This document shows, piece by piece, positions 48,581-56,433 of a DNA stretch of 64,000 nt (its first letter is position 1; every line of letters starts with the position of its first letter). The notes below the pieces were generated by a model, which ran no database searches, was not told the DNA's origin, and saw nothing but the letters and a program-made list of their open reading frames with translations. The position numbers were made by a program, and so were the translations under genes. Source of the DNA: a virus (Duplodnaviria; Caudoviricetes); the IMG/VR virus record IMGVR_UViG_3300028048_000123, positions 12,465 to 76,464 of that record; one strand, 5' to 3'.

Positions 48581-49565
48581 TTATTTGTATCTTTCCTTTT
48601 GTTATTTTGTGTTTAATAAGCAATTTCTTAATAAAAGCCTCGCTACAATTATATTTTTTTGCAATATCAGCTCTTGACCAATTTTGTCTTACATAAAGCT
48701 CATATAAATAATCTGCTGTGAGTTCATTTTTAATATTATCAAAATACTGCTTCTTTGTTATATTATGATTAGCTAAAAATATTACCATTTTATCAACAGG
48801 TATATTAAAATGGGCCGCTGTTTCGTATTTATTATGATTTTGGTTTACAAAAAAATCGTATACGTCTTTTTCATTTATTTTTAAATAAAGCTGTTCATGC
48901 TTACATATGCCATATTTTTTATTTAATACAATTAATTTTGCAGTACAACATCCAAAATGGCTAGCTGTTTCTGTTAGTGTATGATTTTCATTTTTATAAT
49001 ATTGTATAAGCTCTGCTTTACTTGGTGTATAGTAATTTGGAATTACTATATTATATTTTTTAAGCTTTGCTCTAAAGTATGATTTACTACAGCCAAAAAA
49101 ATCACAGGCTTCTTTTTTTGTATGCCCTTCAACTATGAGATAATTATATAATCTATCATAAGTTAAGCCAAGTTCTAGCTTTTCATATAAAGCTTGCAAA
49201 TCTTTATAATCAGCTTCACTGAGCTGCTTTTTCTTTAAGTCATCTCGCCCAATTCAATGAAGCATGGATCTAACTGCTTTTAGATTAGCTGCAGCCATAG
49301 TATCAATTGTATGTAAAGCTAAGAAATAATGTGCTTTAATATGGTCAGCATAATGAAGTCTAACTAAATTTGTGCTGTTATTATCTATAGCCATATTATT
49401 TTGCTTATAGTATGCCCTTGGAATAATGTGGTGCACTTGACAACCTAGTTCTGTATTAGGCTGTGCATTATCTACTAAAAATTGTAAATAGTTTTTGCAA
49501 TCAGCCTGCTCTTTAAAAATAGCTATATTGCTAAGCTCTGTCATTTTTATATGTATATTAAGCAT
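48573..49565 (-). CDS. HNH endonuclease with C-terminal HTH repeats (joined through TGA 49254)
   Basis: HHIIPRAYY...NLVRL..ADHIKAHY, paralogous to 44875..45951; frame continues MLH-W-IGRDD. Confidence 0.75.
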
Positions 49566-49651: not shown

Positions 49652-50785
49652 TTACTTAAGCTGTTCTGGAATTACGTTAGTAATATCACCACGCACAAGC
49701 ATTACAGATCTATGATTACCACAGTTTAATGTGATAGCTTCATTCTTGCATGAGTCTAAAATAAACTTTAAGTCAGCTAAGTTAAGCTTCATTGCATAGC
49801 TTCCATCAATTATGCTACCTGTATTCGTTTTTACATATTCAACATTACCATTTTCATCTGTAATTACCATATCATCACCTGAGAATGTGCAAATGCCTTT
49901 AAGTTCAAATGTATTTAACTCTTTATTGCAGTTTTTATTAAATGTAATGATACGGTTAATGGCATTAGATAGCTCTGTTGCTGAAACAATAACTCTATTT
50001 TGATAGCTGTCAGCCATAAATTGCTTAATTAAATTAATAGGCCCTTGAATTTTTCTTAACATTACATCATCGCTATTTACAATAGCTGCCAAATAAGTTG
50101 TATCATTATAAAATACAGCTTTTGATTGCAAGAAGCCATTTGATAAAGCATCTGTACCATACATAAAATTAACATCTGTCTTGAATAGCTTAAATAATCT
50201 AACAATTCTGTCAGATAATAATAGCTTAATTGGTTTCTCTAACTTAAATGAATTAACACATGCACCAGTTGTAAAGGTAAAACAACCGTTTTCATCTAAA
50301 TAATAAAGCTTTTGTAATTCATCAATTTTTGCAGGATCAATTCCTTTTGTCTTTTGAATTTCTTTACTATTTACATTTAAAATGCTCATTAAAATATCGT
50401 TGCTAATATTCATATTAACAGTATCATTAACTAGCTTAATTACAGGTAACGTCATAAGCTTATCATTATCGTAGATTAATGGAATTTTATAACTGCTCTT
50501 ACCTACTTTAATAGTTAGATCTTGTTCACTAGCTTCTACTTCAAAAGCATCAGCTGTAATACCAGTGACTAAGCCTAAAAAAGTATTTGCATTTACAACA
50601 GCTCTAAAGTTAATATCTTCTGTTAAATTATATTTAACTGATACAAACCATTCTTTATTTGTTGCATTTAATGAAATAGCTTTATCTTTAGCTATAATCT
50701 CAACATTAGCTACATTCTTATCAGAACTAATAGCTGCTAAAATAGTATTAGCCACATCTTTAAATTCTTTTGTTTGAATAATCAT
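49652..50785 (-). CDS. dnaN: Beta sliding clamp
   Basis: 377 aa, LNATNKE (cf. ATDLE), three-domain beta-clamp size and pattern. Confidence 0.75.
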   Translation of the reverse strand: MIIQTKEFKDVANTILAAISSDKNVANVEIIAKDKAISLNATNKEWFVSVKYNLTEDINFRAVVNANTFLGLVTGITADAFEVEASEQDLTIKVGKSSYKIPLIYDNDKLMTLPVIKLVNDTVNMNISNDILMSILNVNSKEIQKTKGIDPAKIDELQKLYYLDENGCFTFTTGACVNSFKLEKPIKLLLSDRIVRLFKLFKTDVNFMYGTDALSNGFLQSKAVFYNDTTYLAAIVNSDDVMLRKIQGPINLIKQFMADSYQNRVIVSATELSNAINRIITFNKNCNKELNTFELKGICTFSGDDMVITDENGNVEYVKTNTGSIIDGSYAMKLNLADLKFILDSCKNEAITLNCGNHRSVMLVRGDITNVIPEQLK

Positions 50786-50816
50786 TGTTTATGCTCCTTC
50801 TATATATTATACAATA

Positions 50817-51824
50817 TTAATATTCTAAATCTATTCCTTCTGTGATAGCTTTGTAAATTGCTTCTTTTGGGAATTCTATGTGATTTTCATATATCTTTTC
50901 TAATGCCTCTTCTCTTGAAATTGGCGCAATGCCTTTCTTCTCATCGCCCTTTTCAAGCTTATCAAACTCAGCTCTGATAGAAACTGCTGCAGAATCAGCA
51001 TACCAACGACTTACGTTGTAAGGGTCGCACTTCATAGCCGGAGCTGTAATACCAAGTTCAATAGCTGCATTAATCATAATTTCAGGAAGACGCTTTTCAA
51101 CTTGTTCAGCATACTCTTCAGGACATTCAACTAAAACTTCGTCGTGCACTGAAATAATCAAGTGTGTGTCCCATGCTCTTAATTGAGGATCTCTATAGAT
51201 GTCAATCATAGCTTTTTTAGTAAGTGTTCCAGCAGAACCTTGAATTAAAGCATTAAAACATTGTCTTTCTGCTTGTGCAATTCTACCAGTATTAGCTTGA
51301 ATAATAACTGGTTCAAGCTTTTGTGTAGGCTCTTTAACATACCAAACCTTTTTGCCATTTCTATATTCTTGGCGCATATGCTTTTCGCCATGTAAAGCTC
51401 TTATAGCCATTTTTGTATAACAAGCATTGCTGATTTCACCATTGCTTTTCCAAGATGGGTCTTTGCTTCTTTGCCATTCATCAGACCTTTGTATCTCTTC
51501 TGCTAATACTTCCTTCCAGTATTTAACTGAGTATGACTCTTCAAGTCTGTTTTCACAGCCAATAAATGGGTTAAAGTTCTTAGCATCATCATTATCCTTT
51601 AGATAGATTTCATACTTTGGTAAGAACAAGTCAGGAAGTCTACGTCTACGACCTAATAAGCCCTCTACATAACCGTGTTCTCTCAAGAACTTCTTAGCAT
51701 TGGCAATAGCACTACCTAAGCCACCGAACATCTTGAAATACTTTTCAAGTAATTCAGTGCCTTCTTTAGCAGTCTTGCCCATTAGCGATCCTGCTCCTGC
51801 TCCAGACATTCCATAGTTGCCAGC
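50817..51824 (-). CDS. polA: PolA piece E: end of motif B through motif C
   Basis: AGNYGM, GYVEGLLGRRRRLP, AERQCFNALIQGSAG, SVHDEV; the frame begins right after the 10-nt insert. Confidence 0.85.
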   Translation of the reverse strand, partial: AGNYGMSGAGAGSLMGKTAKEGTELLEKYFKMFGGLGSAIANAKKFLREHGYVEGLLGRRRRLPDLFLPKYEIYLKDNDDAKNFNPFIGCENRLEESYSVKYWKEVLAEEIQRSDEWQRSKDPSWKSNGEISNACYTKMAIRALHGEKHMRQEYRNGKKVWYVKEPTQKLEPVIIQANTGRIAQAERQCFNALIQGSAGTLTKKAMIDIYRDPQLRAWDTHLIISVHDEVLVECPEEYAEQVEKRLPEIMINAAIELGITAPAMKCDPYNVSRWYADSAAVSIRAEFDKLEKGDEKKGIAPISREEALEKIYENHIEFPKEAIYKAITEGIDLEY

Positions 51825-51831
51825 TACGGCC

Positions 51832-51927
51832 CTAAAGAACTAGCGTTTTTCCAACAGAACGTCTTTCTTTTCCAGCTTTACTTGTTAGTCTAGCTGGTGA
51901 TTTAACTGTTATATTCGCTAGCTTCAT
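51832..51927 (-). CDS. polA: PolA piece D: 31-codon mini-ORF carrying the first half of motif B
   Basis: MKLANITVKSPARLTSKAGKERRSVGKTLVL-TAG; SD GGAGGTGA; TAATG overlap with the endonuclease stop. Confidence 0.75.
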   Translation of the reverse strand: MKLANITVKSPARLTSKAGKERRSVGKTLVL

Positions 51928-52952
51928 TATGACATCACCTCCTCTTCATACTTCCAATAATTATTCATATATTTTTTTCCTGTTAAGCAGCTTTCATTTA
52001 TTTTTCGTGCTATATTTCGTTGTCTTTTATAGTCATTTGATAGCGTTTTTGAATAACTAGCTGCTGATTCTAATTTTTCTATTATATTATACGATTCATC
52101 TAATCGAAAAATTACTTTTGCTCTGGCTTGCTTATTTTCTTTTTTTACTATGTCTTCTGACAAAGGGCTATCTTTATAGTCTTCATAATGTCGCCAAATA
52201 AATCCATAGGCATGTCCTAGTTTTTCTTTACAAATTTTATGTATTCTACCCATAGCTGTATTAGGTAAAGTATTCTTGTATTCATCTTGAGCTATTACTG
52301 CAAGTGCAGCTGTATAAGATGACTCAAAAACTTGAATAAACTCACCTGTCTTTAAATTATATTGGCCTACTTTTGCTATTCCTGCTGTAATTCTAGCTTT
52401 TGCTCTGCTACAGTTTTTAAAAGCATCTGGTATATGTAAACCTTTATTCCAAGGCACCATACCTTTTCTAGCTATGCTTAGCTTTCTTTTAGCTTCTTCA
52501 GACTTAGGCTTACCCTTTTGGCGTTCTGAGTTAGCTTTACAAATAGCTTTATATTTTTCTGGATTATTTTCTTTAAGGTTTTTCCACCAAGCTTTATTTT
52601 TTTCACTCATTTTCTTTTTATCAGCTTCTGTAAAAACATATCCATGAGTGCCTTGACCACCTAAAGTCATATTATAACCACAATTATTCTTGTAATAAGT
52701 GTTATATTGTTTAATATATTCTTGTTCTTTTTTGTCAATATTTGCAGTATCAATATTAGACTCAAGTATCTCAAAAGTAAAATTATCTAATCCATATTTA
52801 TCTAAAGCAGCATGAAAAATCGTTGTAGCTTTTGTATAGGGAATATCATTAATGTGTTCAAAAATTCTACGATCAAGTCTACCTTCTTTTGTCTGACCAA
52901 TATATTTTTTATTATTAATAAGATTAGTTGCTAAATAAATTATATGTTTCAT
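51927..52952 (-). CDS. GIY-YIG homing endonuclease inserted between polA pieces
   Basis: IIYLATNLINNKKYIGQT, GYNMTLGGQG, NUMOD repeats. Confidence 0.88.
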   Translation of the reverse strand: MKHIIYLATNLINNKKYIGQTKEGRLDRRIFEHINDIPYTKATTIFHAALDKYGLDNFTFEILESNIDTANIDKKEQEYIKQYNTYYKNNCGYNMTLGGQGTHGYVFTEADKKKMSEKNKAWWKNLKENNPEKYKAICKANSERQKGKPKSEEAKRKLSIARKGMVPWNKGLHIPDAFKNCSRAKARITAGIAKVGQYNLKTGEFIQVFESSYTAALAVIAQDEYKNTLPNTAMGRIHKICKEKLGHAYGFIWRHYEDYKDSPLSEDIVKKENKQARAKVIFRLDESYNIIEKLESAASYSKTLSNDYKRQRNIARKINESCLTGKKYMNNYWKYEEEVMS

Positions 52953-52989
52953 GGTATATCTCTCCTGGCTGCTAATTATAGCTTGTCAT

Positions 52990-53000
52990 TTAATTTAGCA
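52990..53000 (-). promoter_or_regulatory. GCTAAATTA element overlapping the stop of polA piece C
   Basis: TGC-TAA-ATTAA upstream of the GIY-YIG gene. Confidence 0.55.
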
Positions 53001-53387
53001 CTTCTTAAACATGAGTTTTATATTTTGTTCATCAACTGGCTGCTTATCAGTAATAGCTAACCAACCATCATCAGCTTTAATCTTATCACCTATCTGTAGG
53101 TCTTTAACAGCTACATCACCATTATCTGTTTCTAGCATATTATAATATAGAGTTGTTATTCCTGTTTGGTCGTCTACTTCTACTTGTTCCTCTTTACCTG
53201 AGCCAGAAACAACTTTTTTACCATCTATTTCAACTACTGAACCTGGCTTATAAAACTCTAAGCAGTCTTCATAAGGCATATCAAAAATCATACTAGCAAT
53301 AATAGCATAAGCATCTTTGCCTTCAGCATAAGCTTTCAAAAGTGTTGGGTCTTGGCTTAAGTATGCAGCTAATCTTAATTCTTGTCC
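52995..53387 (-). CDS. polA: PolA piece C: second half of motif A plus Hint-like tail
   Basis: GQELRLAAYLSQDPTLLKAYAEGKDAYAIIASMIF; no start codon of its own at motif A. Confidence 0.8.
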   Translation of the reverse strand, partial: GQELRLAAYLSQDPTLLKAYAEGKDAYAIIASMIFDMPYEDCLEFYKPGSVVEIDGKKVVSGSGKEEQVEVDDQTGITTLYYNMLETDNGDVAVKDLQIGDKIKADDGWLAITDKQPVDEQNIKLMFKKC

Positions 53388-53391
53388 TGAC

Positions 53392-53448
53392 CTAAGAATA
53401 GTCTGATCCGACTATTTTACAATTAGCACGAACTTTAACAGACTTCAT
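53392..53448 (-). CDS. polA: PolA piece B: 18-codon mini-ORF ending in motif A (DYS)
   Basis: MKSVKVRANCKIVGSDYS-TAG; SD GGAGGTGA; TAATG overlap with the piece A stop. Confidence 0.75.
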   Translation of the reverse strand: MKSVKVRANCKIVGSDYS

Positions 53449-55418
53449 TAGACATCACCTCCCTCTTTAATATAAAATGTATAATAATTATTTTCATAGT
53501 TAATATTTATAATAGTATCTATGCCTTCTGTTGAGACTAACTTATCGCCAATCTTTACATCGGGTGCTTTCTTATAGCCTTCAGTTGTTTCTATTTCTGA
53601 GGTTTCATAAATCTTATAACAGTCATCTAAACATTCACAGTCATAGACTTTTTTACCTGCTCTGAATAGCGTTCTTATTTCAGGGTTGTGTGATGGAATA
53701 TTTTGGCTGTTAATTGAGTTCATTTCAACTGGATTATCATTCTCGTCTAAGAACTTAAACTTACCGCCTGAAGCAAAACGGCCTGTGTCAGTTCCTGTGC
53801 TATTTAGTCTGTATCTAATACGACCATCTGGCCAATATTTAGCTAAGGCCGGAATAACATCAATATAAGTTGTAATTAGCTTTACAATACCACGTCTTAC
53901 CAATAAAGCTTTACACAAATTGTGTGCTGCTGGTAAAGCTTGCTTATAAAGCTCAATTAGCTTATCTCTGTCTGGCAAGAATTGCTTTACTTTAGCTGTT
54001 GTATAAAACTCAAAGCCTGGCATATTCTCTTTCACCTTTTTATCTTTAGCTTGTTTCTCAGCTTCTTTTTGTGCTGATTCTTCCATGATTAAGAATTGGT
54101 CTACTGTTGCCTCAGCTATTTCATCTAAGCTATCTAAGTCAGCTAATAATTGGTCATCTAAAAACTTAATTTCATCTTCACCTGTAGCTCTTGGATTCTT
54201 TGGGTCAGCCGGCTGTCTTAATAATATATCATAAAATAATATAGCAAGTTGTGTTGGTGAAGCTAGGTTAATTGGGTCTTCAAGTTGAGAAACCATTGGT
54301 TTACCAAGTTTATACTTTCTTCCTTTATCATCTTGAAGTGTATAAGTTTCTTCAGCTTTTTGTAAAGACATTTTAGATTTAGAAGACTGATATATTCTAC
54401 CTCTGCTGTTTGCATAATAAGATAGCTTCCATGCAGAAATTAAATCTTTTAAGTTATTTAATTCTTTTGCTATATCAGCATCTAGCTCTTCTAATTGCTT
54501 ATCATATTTAATTTTTAAACGTGCGCCTTCTTCTTGGTCAATATCAACACCATATAGCTCTGTCTCAGCAGTAACTTCAACTGATGGAATCTCAATTTGT
54601 TCCATTAGCTTTAATTGTCTTGCATTTTCTGGTTTATTAAAATACTCCATTTCCCATTCATAAACCTTATAAGTCATAAGTGAATCGGTAGCAGCATACA
54701 AAGCAAATATATCTGGGTCGACATATCTGTAAGGTGTGCCTTCAAATAAAGCATCAATACTATATTTTGTTTGTGTTGGGTCAATATAAGTTGTATAAAT
54801 ATATTTTAAGCTAACCTTTTTATCAGCAAAAACATTCTCATCTATGATTCTGGCTGCTACTAATGTGTCCCAAGTTGGAGCTAATTGTAGGCCGCATGTG
54901 CATTTCAAAACTTCATAATCGAACTTTCCGTTATGCATTATGATATTTGGCTTATTTGGGCTTATAACGAGACGAGAAAGCTGTTCTTTAATATCTTTTT
55001 CAGTTAGCTGATAAGAAAGTCTTTCATTTGTATCAACATTTGTGTGATTTACAGGCACATATATCTGCTTCTTTCCAGGCACATATAAACATAAGCCCAT
55101 AATTTGGCAAGTATAAGCATCAGTGCTGTTATTTGTTTCAGTGTCGACTGCTATACAGCCTACTTCTAATGCAGCATCTATATAAGCTCTAAACTCATCT
55201 ATGCTTGTAACAACCTTAATATTAAGCTTTTGTCTACCTAATACTCTTAAAACATTCTCGCTGATGAAACTTAATCTTTCTTGAAGTGTAATACTTTTAG
55301 ATTTTAATACTTTCTTAGCATCAACTTCAGAAAGCTCGCCTTCAGCACGCTTTAATATGTCCTTTATATCAGGTTTTTCTAATGTAATTTCAAACTCGTC
55401 ACCAAATAGTCCTGGCAT
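53448..55418 (-). CDS. polA: PolA piece A: 3'-5' exonuclease, thumb and Hint-like tail
   Basis: AVDTETN, MHNGKFD, YAATDS, NLASPTQLA, GTDTGRFAS, NSQNIP. Confidence 0.9.
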   Translation of the reverse strand: MPGLFGDEFEITLEKPDIKDILKRAEGELSEVDAKKVLKSKSITLQERLSFISENVLRVLGRQKLNIKVVTSIDEFRAYIDAALEVGCIAVDTETNNSTDAYTCQIMGLCLYVPGKKQIYVPVNHTNVDTNERLSYQLTEKDIKEQLSRLVISPNKPNIIMHNGKFDYEVLKCTCGLQLAPTWDTLVAARIIDENVFADKKVSLKYIYTTYIDPTQTKYSIDALFEGTPYRYVDPDIFALYAATDSLMTYKVYEWEMEYFNKPENARQLKLMEQIEIPSVEVTAETELYGVDIDQEEGARLKIKYDKQLEELDADIAKELNNLKDLISAWKLSYYANSRGRIYQSSKSKMSLQKAEETYTLQDDKGRKYKLGKPMVSQLEDPINLASPTQLAILFYDILLRQPADPKNPRATGEDEIKFLDDQLLADLDSLDEIAEATVDQFLIMEESAQKEAEKQAKDKKVKENMPGFEFYTTAKVKQFLPDRDKLIELYKQALPAAHNLCKALLVRRGIVKLITTYIDVIPALAKYWPDGRIRYRLNSTGTDTGRFASGGKFKFLDENDNPVEMNSINSQNIPSHNPEIRTLFRAGKKVYDCECLDDCYKIYETSEIETTEGYKKAPDVKIGDKLVSTEGIDTIININYENNYYTFYIKEGGDV

Positions 55419-55468
55419 TTCTTACCTCATTTTAAAACAGTATTCATAATAATATACAATATAAAAAA

Positions 55469-55500
55469 GAATAAATTGCCATTTTTCAGACAATTTATTC
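55469..55500 (-). terminator. Intrinsic terminator after ssb
   Basis: GAATAAATTG/CAATTTATTC stem plus T tract. Confidence 0.75.
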
Positions 55501-55533
55501 AATATTTAAGTTATGAAACTTAATCGTAGCCTA

Positions 55534-56433
55534 TTAGAAATTAAACTTTGGTGCTGGTCTCTCAAATGTTCTTTGAGGTGCATCTGCTGTTGGTGTTGGA
55601 GCTGGTTGTGCAGGTGTTTCATTAGCTAACAAAGCTTCTGCTGCTGCTAATACTCCGCCTACTTCTGGCTCAGCTACCTTAGGCATAACTAGAGCTGCAT
55701 ATTCATCAGCCATAAATGGTGGTTGGGTAGCAGGTTCATCTTTAACAGGAGCTGCTTCTGTCTTTTCAGCCTTCTTAAAAGCTGGGAATTCACCTGTTTC
55801 TAAGAAAGTGGCAATTTCATCTTCTGTCTTTACCCAATAGTCATGCTTAGCTGGGTCATAACCTTCAAAAGCACTGAAATCTGTTGGAATATTATAGTTA
55901 GCTGCCATCTTTTCAGGAATATAGTTAGCTGTATATGTAACCTTAGTTCCCTTTTCTCTGCCACCAATACGGTTAATTGTGAATAAGCTTTCTCTTAAAT
56001 CACCATAAGTTGTCAATAATGTATTGATTTCTTGAGCTCCATAATAAGCATTCTTTTGCCAGATAGCTGGTTGTGGATCACTGTATGTTCCTGTAGCTCT
56101 ATCTAGATAAGATACAATAACTGGGATGAAAACTTGGTTTTGAGCCTTACCTACATTTTCTGCGCCTTCTTTATTAGCAGTGCATAATGGGCACTTGTTT
56201 TCAAAAGAATCAATAGCATTAAAACAGCTAATTGTCTTCCAGCCTTGCTTATCCTTAATTGTATGAACCTTAGCGAACTTTAGCTCATCAATCTTACTTA
56301 CATTAAATCTAACAACAGCTGAATCACCATCATTTGATAGCTTAAAGAAACCAATCTTTTGTCCGCTACCTTTTTGTGTGCTTCCTGATCTGTTGTTTTG
56401 CTTCATTAATTCTGCATAATTAAAACTACTCAT
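55534..56433 (-). CDS. ssb: Single-stranded DNA-binding protein, gp32-like
   Basis: GFFKLSNDGDSAVVRF, CPLC, Pro/Ala-rich tail ending in F; position in the replication operon. Confidence 0.65.
   Translation of the reverse strand: MSSFNYAELMKQNNRSGSTQKGSGQKIGFFKLSNDGDSAVVRFNVSKIDELKFAKVHTIKDKQGWKTISCFNAIDSFENKCPLCTANKEGAENVGKAQNQVFIPVIVSYLDRATGTYSDPQPAIWQKNAYYGAQEINTLLTTYGDLRESLFTINRIGGREKGTKVTYTANYIPEKMAANYNIPTDFSAFEGYDPAKHDYWVKTEDEIATFLETGEFPAFKKAEKTEAAPVKDEPATQPPFMADEYAALVMPKVAEPEVGGVLAAAEALLANETPAQPAPTPTADAPQRTFERPAPKFNF

What the first reader, a model, noticed from the sequence alone, without database searches (positions are those of the whole stretch)
51822..53462. polA is broken inside motifs A and B by two TAGG-initiated micro-inserts (7 and 10 nt), suggesting programmed bypass or micro-splicing
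Seen: on the coding strand, motif A reads GAC TAT TCT [TAGGTCA] GGA CAA GAA (insert 53394-53388) and motif B reads AAA ACG CTA GTT CTT [TAGGGCCGTA] GCT GGC AAC TAT GGA (insert 51834-51825). Removing the bracketed bases gives DYSGQELR and KTLVLAGNYG. The latter restores the K-to-Y spacing of 8 seen in E. coli Pol I K758/Y766. Both inserts start TAGG (an in-frame amber stop), both shift the frame by +1, and both follow a short restarted mini-ORF. At site A a Ser tRNA could take off at UCU and land on UCA 7 nt on, as in T4 gene 60 hopping (matched codons plus UAG). Site B has no matched Leu landing codon. Both inserts lie in potential hairpins (ATTCTT/AAGAAT; TAGTT/AACTA enclosing GCC/GGC). Neither downstream piece has a start codon before the catalytic residues, and no other replicative polymerase is present in this window. 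Inference: an uncharacterised recoding or RNA-processing event assembles the active site. The inserts could alternatively be relics of lost introns that protect against homing endonucleases.
Basis: partly seen in the sequence, partly recalled or inferred. Interest (0 to 1): 0.88.

Follow-up and report, generated by a model that had tools for sequence, protein, structure and literature searches.

The report
Two ribosome stop-hops in phage polymerase
The only DNA polymerase gene found in this uncultured cattle-gut phage is cut into three genes by selfish nuclease cassettes and has 7 and 10 extra bases, each starting with a stop codon, inside its two catalytic motifs. Related phages carry many versions of such inserts that follow one rule, so ribosomes most likely hop over them, a very short natural counterpart of the rare phage T4 gene 60 bypass.

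Summary
Both micro-inserts are real: 7 nt at 53394-53388 and 10 nt at 51834-51825 on the minus strand. An independent assembly of the probable source run reproduces them. Removing exactly these bases restores the motif A and motif B register seen in every relative.

polA here is three cistrons. Each restart has a strong ribosome-binding site and a short leader of 18 or 31 codons that runs into the insert. A GIY-YIG homing endonuclease gene sits before the second restart.

In 22 related loci I found 13 independent inserts of 1-55 nt at the same two motifs:
- Eleven begin with a real stop codon. The other two begin with the near-unused codons CGG or CUG.
- Seven of 12 end in a codon matching the take-off codon.
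- No relative has a sense-codon insertion at either motif.
- The pieces downstream of the inserts are under strong purifying selection (dN/dS 0.06-0.15).

Best reading (about 0.7): short programmed translational bypasses that also disrupt the endonuclease target, like T4 mobA/gene 60. Site A fits a Ser-to-Ser hop. Site B has no matched landing codon, and its homologue in another phage is 9 nt and in frame.

No protein or RNA evidence exists. Micro-splicing and special hairpins are not supported. This scan has already reported the same phenomenon on other phage DNA.

The parts
53448..55418 (-). polA cistron 1 (656 codons plus TAA): 3'-5' exonuclease and the N-terminal part of the polymerase domain up to just before motif A, then a tail of about 65 residues that unsplit relatives lack
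   Evidence: ORF. Pfam DNA_pol_A_exo1 E 3.9e-15 and a partial DNA_pol_A match. Colinear with the MS1 and phiCTP1 polymerases. The unsplit relative P0008 runs straight on.
53454..53462 (-). Ribosome-binding site GGAGGUGAU of restart A, 5 nt before the AUG that overlaps the TAA of cistron 1 by one base
   Evidence: The same motif precedes the restarts of gap-bearing relatives.
53395..53448 (-). Leader A: 18 codons, a 10-residue basic N-terminal extension plus the first half of motif A (KIVGSDYS), ending on take-off codon UCU (53397-53395)
   Evidence: Relatives start their second cistron the same way and continue without a break (P0009, P0014, P0017, P0028; L018).
53388..53394 (-). Coding gap A, 7 nt UAGG UCA: in-frame UAG, one spacer base and landing codon UCA (53390-53388)
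   Evidence: Variants UAGG UCU, UAAG UCA and UAAG UCC occur in L019-21, L022 and L056. The 88%-identical relative L018 has no gap here.
52995..53387 (-). Resumed cistron 2 (130 codons plus TAA): second half of motif A (GQELR) to just before motif B, then a HINT-like beta tail (residues about 76-130)
   Evidence: Pfam DNA_pol_A partial match. dN/dS 0.058 against L018. AF2 tail pLDDT 81-89. Inteins top both fold searches.
51927..52952 (-). Free-standing GIY-YIG / NUMOD3 homing endonuclease gene (341 codons plus TAA) between cistrons 2 and 3
   Evidence: Pfam GIY-YIG E 7.2e-8 and NUMOD3 E 5.3e-6. PHROG homing endonuclease E 9.9e-27. 40-42% identical to the endonucleases at the same junction in L060 and L062.
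51934..51942 (-). Ribosome-binding site GGAGGUGAU of restart B, 6 nt before the AUG that overlaps the endonuclease TAA by one base
51835..51927 (-). Leader B: 31 codons, an N-terminal extension plus the first half of motif B up to KTLVL, ending on take-off codon CUU (51837-51835)
   Evidence: Gapless relatives P0006, P0031, P0043 and P0083 start their last cistron the same way and read on into AGNYG or AATYG.
51825..51834 (-). Coding gap B, 10 nt UAGGGCC GUA: in-frame UAG. The last triplet GUA matches take-off CUU only at position 2, with position 3 wobble-compatible.
   Evidence: Its homologue in L182 is 9 nt (UAAGGU CGU) and in frame.
50817..51824 (-). Resumed cistron 3 (335 codons plus TAA): second half of motif B (AGNYGM), motif C and the C-terminus
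   Evidence: Pfam DNA_pol_A E 1.4e-28. dN/dS 0.077 against L018 and 0.149 against L182. 208 homologues at E <= 1e-20.

Best explanation
polA is expressed as three polypeptides. Making the second and the third each requires a short programmed translational bypass (a stop-hop).

Proposed steps:
- A ribosome starts at the strong restart site and makes a leader of 18 codons (site A) or 31 codons (site B).
- It stalls with peptidyl-tRNA on the take-off codon (UCU at A, CUU at B) and UAG in the A site.
- Before release factor 1 acts, the peptidyl-tRNA unpairs and the mRNA slides 7 or 10 nt.
- Decoding resumes at GGA or GCU. This gives DYS-GQELR and KTLVL-AGNYG, exactly as in relatives without inserts.
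- At site A the tRNA-Ser re-pairs with UCA. At site B re-pairing is imperfect (GUA).

The inserts came with, or were selected because of, homing-endonuclease cassettes that split the gene about 50-90 nt upstream. By disrupting the conserved motif sequence they probably make the phage's own DNA immune to that endonuclease, as in T4 mobA/gene 60.

The three chains probably reassemble through HINT-like tails that no longer splice.

Shown here: the anatomy, the comparative rule, purifying selection, and the absence of sense-codon insertions in relatives. Inferred: the hop itself, its efficiency, the immunity function and the reassembly.
For: 1. Removing exactly 7 and 10 nt restores the register of distant and close homologues.

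2. 34 of 34 relatives with motif A read DYS or DFS straight into [GA]QE. 96 of 96 have 7 residues between the K and Y of motif B. About 50 further loci have no extra bases. So added residues are never seen there.

3. There are 13 independent inserts at the two motifs in relatives.
- Site A: UCN[UARG UCN] in four versions; GCC[UA GCU]; UCC[UA GCU]; GAA[UAGCU GAU]; GAG[C GGG]; and one 55-nt gap.
- Site B: CUU[UAGCG CUA] and its homologue CUU[UGACG CUC]; CUU[UAGCAAAG CUU]; UUG[UGACGAAAC UUG]; ACU[UAGCGU ACU]; CUG[UAG GUG]; and GCA[C] / GCC[CU].
- Eleven of 13 start with a stop codon (chance P about 1e-10). Seven of 12 end with a codon sharing nt 1-2 with the take-off codon (chance P about 3e-7).
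- The non-stop inserts start with CGG (1 of 16191 codons in the window) or CUG (0.1%).

4. In-frame inserts of 6, 9, 9 and 12 nt still begin with a stop. TGA and TAG behave as real stops in the records tested for the 12-nt (L060) and one 9-nt (L062) insert.

5. The window's 10-nt gap B and its 9-nt in-frame homologue in L182 cannot share a frameshift mechanism, but both give the same product if the gap is skipped.

6. dN/dS is 0.06-0.15 for the pieces downstream of both gaps. No start codon exists in the resume frames.

7. A 100%-complete 233-kb relative (G001) has no PolB hit, only a sub-threshold DnaE hit (16.5 bits), and the gap-bearing polA.

8. Every gap lies 18-34 codons after a restart. 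Endonuclease genes (two GIY-YIG families and an HNH-type DUF7487) occupy most of those junctions.

9. One relative (L197) has a gene-60-like 55-nt gap at site A: UAG, a GC hairpin with a GAGA loop, then AU-rich sequence (fold z -2.97).

10. Synthetic stop-hops and hungry-codon bypasses are established. Natural short ones were expected but unknown (PMC5009743; bioRxiv 10.1101/2022.08.31.505936).
Against: - There is no protein, ribosome-profiling or RNA evidence. Public runs other than the probable source do not cover either gap.
- Site B has no matched landing codon (CUU against GUA; L182 CUU against CGU). Four other events also lack a match in nt 1-2.
- No RNA structure above chance at the short gaps. 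No SD-like element at gene-60 spacing is possible in 7-10 nt, so nothing explains high efficiency.
- CUU UAG G at site B resembles the prfB +1 shift site.
- Matched flanking triplets could partly reflect how the inserts arose (microhomology at repair).
- The window's record is a 34% fragment, so a second polymerase elsewhere is not excluded for this phage.
- The 1- and 2-nt inserts in L183 and L018 fit a hop poorly.
Confidence: 0.7

Rival explanations
1. Ordinary +1 ribosomal frameshifting at the stop codons (a shifty stop, as in prfB). The inserted bases would be translated, giving DYS-RS-GQELR and KTLVL-RAV-AGNYG.
For: Both inserts shift the frame by +1. Site B reads CUU UAG G, the same slippery Leu codon plus stop as the prfB site (the prfB comparison is from established knowledge). 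In the site A variants the +1-frame residues would be RS or KS, which is conservative.
Against: - The extra residues would sit inside motif A and the O-helix. No relative of 34 and 96 tested has any insertion there.
- UCU to CUU re-pairing at site A is poor.
- There is no SD-like element upstream of either site.
- The homologous gap in L182 is 9 nt and in frame, and other gaps are 5, 6, 8, 9, 11, 12 and 55 nt, so no single frameshift fits.
Confidence: 0.1
2. This polA copy is non-functional, either recently inactivated or kept only as a platform for selfish elements, and replication relies on another polymerase.
For: The record is about 34% complete. Site B lacks a matched landing codon. The window's 10-nt gap differs by one base from the in-frame 9-nt version in L182, which could be a recent frameshift. 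Close relatives L018 and L183 carry 2- and 1-nt inserts without stops.
Against: - dN/dS is 0.06-0.15 downstream of both gaps, with all catalytic motifs intact and no further stops or shifts.
- The same architecture recurs across lineages at about 40-90% identity.
- A complete 233-kb relative has no other recognisable replicative polymerase.
- Depth 9 in the sample with no variant at the gaps.
Confidence: 0.07
3. No recoding. The polymerase is made of five separate pieces (656 aa, an 18-aa peptide, a piece started internally, a 31-aa peptide, a piece started at Met after YG), or ribosomes terminate at UAG and reinitiate just downstream.
For: Split phage enzymes that reassemble are known. In L060 and L194 the triplet at the end of the gap is UUG or GUG, which could serve as a start.
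Against: - In the window there is no ATG, GTG or TTG between the gap and the conserved GQELR or AGNYG codons, yet those codons are conserved.
- Landing triplets in most relatives are not start codons: UCN, GCU, GAU, CUN, ACU, CGU, GUA.
- Cutting motif A and the O-helix into free 18- and 31-residue peptides is structurally implausible (inference).
Confidence: 0.05
4. The inserts are removed from the RNA (micro-splicing or editing) before translation.
For: Removing the bases restores the frame.
Against: - No Rfam family matches within 50500-55600 at E <= 1.
- 1-12 nt is far below any self-splicing intron.
- The inserts share no sequence or structure across relatives, and the folds are at chance level.
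- No such bacterial or phage mechanism is known (established knowledge).
Confidence: 0.03
5. Assembly or sequencing artefact.
For: The sequence is a metagenome-assembled contig of moderate depth.
Against: A second assembler reproduces both inserts with no difference at depth 9. Homologous inserts appear in independent samples and studies (L019-22, L056, L182). There are no homopolymers at the sites.
Confidence: 0.02

Closest known systems
Phage T4 gene 39 / mobA / gene 60 element with the 50-nt translational bypass (Huang 1988; Bonocora 2011; Manning and Atkins, bioRxiv 10.1101/2022.08.31.505936)
   Same: An essential replication gene is split by a homing-endonuclease cassette. The downstream cistron restarts with a short leader (46 codons in T4; 18 and 31 here) that ends on a take-off codon followed by UAG. 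A non-coding gap must be skipped to restore the conserved protein. Take-off and landing codons are matched at site A. Hungry codons replace the stop in some relatives. The gap probably disrupts the endonuclease target. One relative (L197) even has a hairpin-bearing 55-nt gap.
   Different: The gene differs (family A DNA polymerase, not topoisomerase). The endonucleases differ (GIY-YIG and HNH-type DUF7487, not MobA). There is no sequence homology to the gene 60 cassette. The gaps are 7 and 10 nt, not 50 or 20. There is no take-off stem-loop above chance and no room for the internal SD. There are two gaps in one gene. Site B has no matched landing codon. Nothing here has been shown at the bench.
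Synthetic 'stop-hops' and hungry-codon hops in E. coli (Weiss et al. 1987, as reviewed in PMC5009743)
   Same: Peptidyl-tRNA hops over a stop codon between matched codons a few bases apart, driven by a slow-to-decode A site. Several relatives (UUG..UUG, ACU..ACU, CUU..CUU) are of exactly this form.
   Different: Those were engineered constructs with low efficiency. The review states that natural short-distance cases were presumed but not known. Here they sit in an essential gene and are kept by selection.
Mitochondrial bypass elements ('byps') of Magnusiomyces capitatus (Lang 2014; Nosek 2015, cited in PMC5009743)
   Same: Many short mobile inserts in essential genes are corrected at translation, with matched take-off and landing codons and an undecodable A-site codon.
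   Different: The byps are 27-55 nt, GC-rich and lie in a mitochondrial translation system. They have no endonuclease cassette and no restart leader.
prfB (RF2) programmed +1 frameshift at CUU UGA C
   Same: Site B has CUU followed by a stop codon, and the downstream frame is +1.
   Different: There is no upstream SD-like stimulator. A +1 shift would add three residues inside the O-helix, which no relative shows. The homologous insert in L182 is in frame.
'Fractured genes': split inteins flanking a free-standing endonuclease gene (Dassa et al. 2009, PMC2677866)
   Same: The host gene is split at a conserved motif. A HINT-like domain ends the upstream piece, an endonuclease ORF lies in between, and the downstream piece restarts. 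The gp41-1 intein from that work is the best structural match to the tail (Z 7.0).
   Different: The tail is only about 55 residues of the HINT fold. The position-1 nucleophile is not conserved (T, V or I). The downstream extension is about 10-14 residues and has no terminal Asn plus nucleophile. Protein splicing is therefore unlikely, and micro-gaps are not part of fractured genes.

Membership tests
Programmed translational bypassing (mechanistic class) | A non-coding gap interrupts an ORF, and skipping it restores colinearity with homologues | tested here: met
   exact register is restored at both sites.
Programmed translational bypassing (mechanistic class) | [quoted passage not shown] | tested here: met
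   UAG at both window sites. 11 of 13 events in relatives start with a stop and the rest with CGG or CUG.
Programmed translational bypassing (mechanistic class) | Landing codon cognate to the take-off peptidyl-tRNA | tested here: inconclusive
   Site A is met (UCU to UCA; relatives UCN to UCN). Site B is not met (CUU to GUA). Across relatives, 7 of 12 events match.
Programmed translational bypassing (mechanistic class) | One polypeptide is made from the two ORFs (protein evidence) | not testable with these tools
   No proteomic data. The only indirect support is purifying selection downstream and the lack of start codons.
T4 gene 60 / MobA bypass cassette (homologous family) | Located in the topoisomerase large-subunit gene with a MobA HNH endonuclease, and cassette sequence homology | tested here: not met
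   The host gene is polA. The endonuclease is GIY-YIG/NUMOD3. The gap is 7 or 10 nt with no similarity. So this works like that cassette but is not a member of it.
T4 gene 60 / MobA bypass cassette (homologous family) | Take-off stem-loop containing the take-off codon and the stop | tested here: not met
   Folds at both window sites and in five relatives give z from -1.4 to +0.2. Only the 55-nt gap of L197 has such a hairpin.
T4 gene 60 / MobA bypass cassette (homologous family) | Nascent-peptide signal in the leader | not testable with these tools
   The leaders are short, basic and conserved in the family, but they are equally conserved in gapless relatives.
prfB-type +1 programmed frameshift | Slippery codon plus stop, with an SD-like stimulator about 3 nt upstream, and a product colinear with homologues | tested here: not met
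   CUU UAG is present at site B only. There is no SD-like element. The product would carry 2-3 extra residues never seen in relatives. The L182 homologue is in frame.
Group I / group II intron | Conserved catalytic RNA structure | tested here: not met
   No Rfam match at E <= 1 in 50500-55600. The intervening DNA is explained by protein-coding tails and an endonuclease ORF.
Intein / split intein (protein splicing) | HINT fold | tested here: inconclusive
   The tail of cistron 2 (residues 76-130) matches gp41-1, MchDnaB-1, Prp8 and PI-SceI inteins at Z 7.0-6.2 with rmsd about 1.9 A over 52-55 residues. Foldseek's top hits are also inteins, at E 0.07-0.4. This is only part of a HINT domain.
Intein / split intein (protein splicing) | N-terminal Cys/Ser nucleophile, C-terminal Asn, and a +1 Cys/Ser/Thr | tested here: not met
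   The residue aligned to intein position 1 is T, V or I among relatives. The downstream extensions are 10-14 residues with no conserved Asn-nucleophile pair.
GIY-YIG homing endonuclease | GIY-YIG catalytic domain plus a DNA-binding module, free-standing inside a conserved host gene | tested here: met
   Pfam GIY-YIG 33.1 bits (cut-off 22.6) and NUMOD3 26.7 bits (cut-off 20.4). PHROG homing endonuclease. Cleavage activity was not tested.

The most novel reading that the evidence does not exclude
A modular mobile recoding element: endonuclease gene, strong restart, short basic leader, and a micro-gap placed in the endonuclease's target. It makes ribosomes hop 1-55 nt without the RNA hairpin or internal SD of gene 60, and at some sites (window site B) without a cognate landing codon. 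Bypassing would then be a general property of early-elongation ribosomes stalled on a stop or hungry codon, used twice within one essential gene. Its efficiency might be tuned by release-factor or rare-tRNA supply in a phage that also reassigns TGA.
Probability: 0.3. Interest if true: 0.9.

Novelty: new variant of a known kind. Interest (0 to 1): 0.8.

Why it matters
Programmed bypassing was for decades a single case (T4 gene 60), later joined by yeast mitochondrial inserts. The 2016 review of the field states that short-distance natural counterparts were long presumed but not found.

A family of phage polymerase genes with many independent 1-55 nt gaps would give natural variants for working out what a ribosome minimally needs to hop. 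Those gaps start with stops or hungry codons and have matched or unmatched landing codons. It would also show that homing endonucleases can drive recoding of the most conserved enzyme motifs.

There is a practical consequence too. Gene callers split or truncate these polymerases, so phage polA surveys and annotation pipelines misread them as fragments or pseudogenes.

Tried and rejected
- Rfam scan of 50500-55600 at E <= 1: nothing.
- GenBank phage collection, protein and distant DNA modes: only relatives at 35% identity or less, and no similar locus.
- Single-protein scan of viral contigs: only distant hits.
- Metagenome-contig scan with the alignment: 13 family members (L102-L114), of which the 11 where a site could be read were gapless, and otherwise bacterial polA. 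One of the two seed patterns requires an uninterrupted motif A, so the scan is biased against site A gaps.
- Exact DNA pattern for the window's site B gap in viral contigs: 16 chance matches outside polA. The site A pattern recovered only the L056 contig.
- P0084 contig: no DNA available.
- RNA folds at seven short-gap sites (both window gaps and five relatives) and one gapless control: not better than shuffles.
- Read laying: runs X2, X3 and the RNA run X6 cover only parts of the endonuclease gene, not the gaps. There is therefore no independent-sample or RNA evidence for or against retention of the inserts.
- Stop-codon reassignment as an explanation of the in-frame gaps: TGA behaves as a real stop in G001 (L060) and G003 (L075), and TAG as a real stop in G002 (L062).
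- Active intein reading of the tails: the catalytic residues are not conserved.

Full report
ANATOMY. The window is part of a 76.5-kb IMG/VR virus record, about 34% complete, from cattle-gut metagenomes. All genes run on the minus strand. The family A polymerase gene lies between an SSB-like gene and a sliding-clamp gene. It is in pieces:
- Cistron 1 is 55418-53448 (656 codons).
- Its TAA overlaps by one base an AUG preceded by GGAGGUGAU.
- An 18-codon leader (53448-53395) ends ...KIVGSDYS on UCU.
- Then come the 7 nt UAGGUCA (53394-53388).
- GQELR... then continues for 130 codons to 52995.
- A 341-codon GIY-YIG/NUMOD3 endonuclease gene follows (52952-51927).
- Its TAA again overlaps an AUG behind GGAGGUGAU.
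- A 31-codon leader (51927-51835) ends ...RRSVGKTLVL on CUU.
- Then come the 10 nt UAGGGCCGUA (51834-51825).
- AGNYGM... then continues for 335 codons to 50817.

OBSERVATION.
- tblastn with the uninterrupted polymerases of Streptococcus phage MS1 and Clostridium phage phiCTP1 places IIGSDYS|QQEPR and K..LLGIIYG across the two breaks. Only removal of exactly 7 and 10 nt gives their register.
- A Logan contig of the probable source run reproduces 51700-53468 without a difference at depth 9. This excludes an assembler artefact but is not an independent sample.
- The small inverted repeats exist but fold no better than shuffled sequence (z -1.36 and +0.20) and are not conserved.

RELATIVES. The last cistron has 208 homologues at E <= 1e-20. 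Many come from contigs of 200-237 kb. Their N-termini show every stage:
- an unsplit gene (P0008);
- genes split before motif A, whose second cistron starts M.K.INTRTKYKIVGSDYS and reads straight on (P0009, P0014, P0017, P0028);
- genes split before motif B, whose last cistron starts M..ATIKVKSPAKILNKAGKERRS and reads straight on (P0006, P0031, P0043, P0083);
- many ORF calls that begin just after a motif, which betrays a break.

DNA of 22 gap-bearing loci gave 13 independent inserts. They are written here as take-off codon [gap, landing triplet last].

Site A:
- UCU[UAGG UCA] in the window.
- UCU[UAGG UCU] in L019-21.
- UCG[UAAG UCA] in L022.
- UCU[UAAG UCC] in L056.
- GCC[UA GCU] in L030.
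- UCC[UA GCU] in L044.
- GAA[UAGCU GAU] in L075.
- GAG[C GGG] in L196.
- A 55-nt gap in L197.

Site B:
- CUU[UAGGGCC GUA] in the window.
- CUU[UAAGGU CGU] in L182.
- CUU[UAGCG CUA] in L075.
- CUU[UGACG CUC] in L195.
- CUU[UAGCAAAG CUU] in L184.
- UUG[UGACGAAAC UUG] in L060, L061 and L081.
- ACU[UAGCGU ACU] in L062 and L063.
- CUG[UAG GUG] in L194.
- GCC[CU] in L018.
- GCA[C] in L183.

The relative closest to the window, L018 (88% identical in the last cistron), has no gap at site A.

THE RULE.
- Removing the insert always restores the canonical motif.
- Eleven of 13 events start with a stop codon directly after the take-off codon. The chance expectation is 0.085 per event, so P is about 1e-10.
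- The two exceptions start with CGG or CUG. CGG occurs once in 16191 codons of the window and not at all in the loci concerned. CUG is 0.1% of codons.
- Seven of 12 events end in a triplet that shares its first two bases with the take-off codon (P about 3e-7).
- Within homologous gap families the stop changes identity (UAG, UAA, UGA) and the landing codon changes its third base, but both properties are kept (L019, L022 and L056; L075 and L195).
- Inserts of 6, 9, 9 and 12 nt are in frame and still begin with a stop.
- In the records of L060 and L075, TGA-ended ORFs have short read-through. In the record of L062, TAG-ended ORFs do. So the stops tested are real stops there.
- No relative has a sense-codon insertion at either place: 34 of 34 for motif A and 96 of 96 for motif B, plus about 50 loci with zero extra bases.

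THE GENE IS IN USE.
- Against L018, dN/dS is 0.16 for cistron 1, 0.058 for cistron 2 and 0.077 for cistron 3 after the gap. Against L182 it is 0.149.
- The conserved GQELR and AGNYG codons lie between the gaps and the first possible start codons. They can therefore only be reached from the leader frame.
- No other PolA, PolB or DnaE match exists in the record.
- A 100%-complete 233-kb relative that carries the 12-nt gap has no PolB match and only a sub-threshold DnaE hit.

ALTERNATIVES.
- A +1 frameshift would add RS and RAV inside motif A and the O-helix. It cannot explain the 9-nt in-frame homologue of gap B in L182, nor the 5-, 6-, 8-, 11-, 12- and 55-nt gaps.
- Reinitiation fails because most landing triplets are not start codons.
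- RNA-level removal has no support.
- A recent loss of function in this particular phage cannot be excluded for site B. Its landing triplet does not match, and it differs by one base from the in-frame version.

LINK TO SELFISH ELEMENTS.
- Every gap lies 18-34 codons after a restart with GGAGGUGAU.
- The junctions hold endonuclease genes. One GIY-YIG family sits at site B (window, L060, L062; L018 and L183 share its C-terminal domain). Another GIY-YIG family sits at site A (L019, L022; decayed in L056). An HNH-type DUF7487 ORF sits at site A in L018, L075 and L197.
- The window has gap A but no endonuclease there. L018 has an endonuclease there but no gap.
- This is the layout of T4 gene 39 / mobA / gene 60, where the gap interrupts the endonuclease's target (PMC5009743).
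- By inference, the micro-inserts protect the phage's own motif A and motif B DNA from the cassette's enzyme, and translation must then compensate.

ASSEMBLY OF THE CHAINS. Cistrons 1 and 2 end in extra beta-rich tails.
- An AF2 model of cistron 2 (7-sequence alignment, mean pLDDT 70, tail 81-89) places residues 76-130 on inteins in two independent searches: gp41-1 Z 7.0, MchDnaB-1 6.9, Prp8 6.2 and PI-SceI 6.2, with Foldseek's top hits also inteins.
- The catalytic residues are not conserved, and the following extension is only 10-14 residues.
- I read these tails as decayed split-intein halves that may still hold the chains together. This is an inference.

COMPARISON AND NOVELTY.
- The mechanism class, bypassing or hopping, is known.
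- The gene 60 cassette family is confined to topoisomerase genes with MobA, and this locus is not a member of it.
- Stop-hops between matched codons were made synthetically in 1987. The 2016 review says natural short ones were presumed but not known.
- My literature searches found no report of them in phage polymerases.
- This scan has already reported the same phenomenon on other phage DNA. Those reports include loci I met independently here: the UUG-UGA-CGA-AAC-UUG gap and the 5- and 7-nt motif A gaps.
- What this window adds is two gaps in one gene, a site with no cognate landing codon whose homologue has another length and frame, and a TGA-reassigning genome.

LIMITS. All evidence is comparative. 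Efficiency, the exact landing at site B, the immunity function and the reassembly are untested.

Noticed in passing
window 1-34000 and 49254-49565 (minus strand): ORFs ending in TGA read through for a median of 139 further codons (9 of 12 for 50 or more). TAG- and TAA-ended ORFs read through for about 3. TGA is therefore very probably a sense codon in the late-gene part of this phage. The polA cistrons and their endonuclease contain no TGA. In L019 an endonuclease has TGA where its L022 homologue has Trp.
   Followed up: partly
window 53451-53640 and 52998-53160 (minus strand): Both upstream polA cistrons end in extra beta-rich tails. The cistron 2 tail models as part of a HINT (intein) fold, but the catalytic residues are not conserved. 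It looks like a decayed 'fractured gene' arrangement.
   Followed up: partly
L197:4431-4485: A relative has a 55-nt gap at the same motif A position: UAG, a GC hairpin with a GAGA loop that pairs the take-off codon, then AU-rich sequence (fold z -2.97). It lies behind an HNH-type DUF7487 endonuclease gene. The architecture is gene-60-like, but in polA.
   Followed up: partly
L018:5957-5958 and L183 (about 1965): Two relatives with a SegE-like GIY-YIG gene have only 2 or 1 extra bases in motif B and no stop. The next zero-frame codon is CUG or CGG, both nearly unused. It is unclear how these are decoded.
   Followed up: partly
window 53388-53462 compared with L018:2649-4600: The window has gap A but no endonuclease gene at that junction. 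Its closest relative has a 602-codon HNH-type endonuclease gene there and no gap. Cistron 1 is 78% identical between the two and cistron 2 is 92% identical, which suggests cassette turnover and mosaicism.
   Followed up: no
window 52370-52591: A metatranscriptome run (X6) holds an identical 222-nt contig inside the GIY-YIG gene. Two other bovine-gut DNA runs from another study hold parts of the same gene but not the flanking polA. The endonuclease gene may circulate more widely than this phage.
   Followed up: no
G001 (record of L060 and L081), 10.7-13.8 kb and 229.2-232.3 kb: The complete 233-kb relative carries the same polA locus at both ends of the record. This is presumably terminal redundancy of the assembly.
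   Followed up: no
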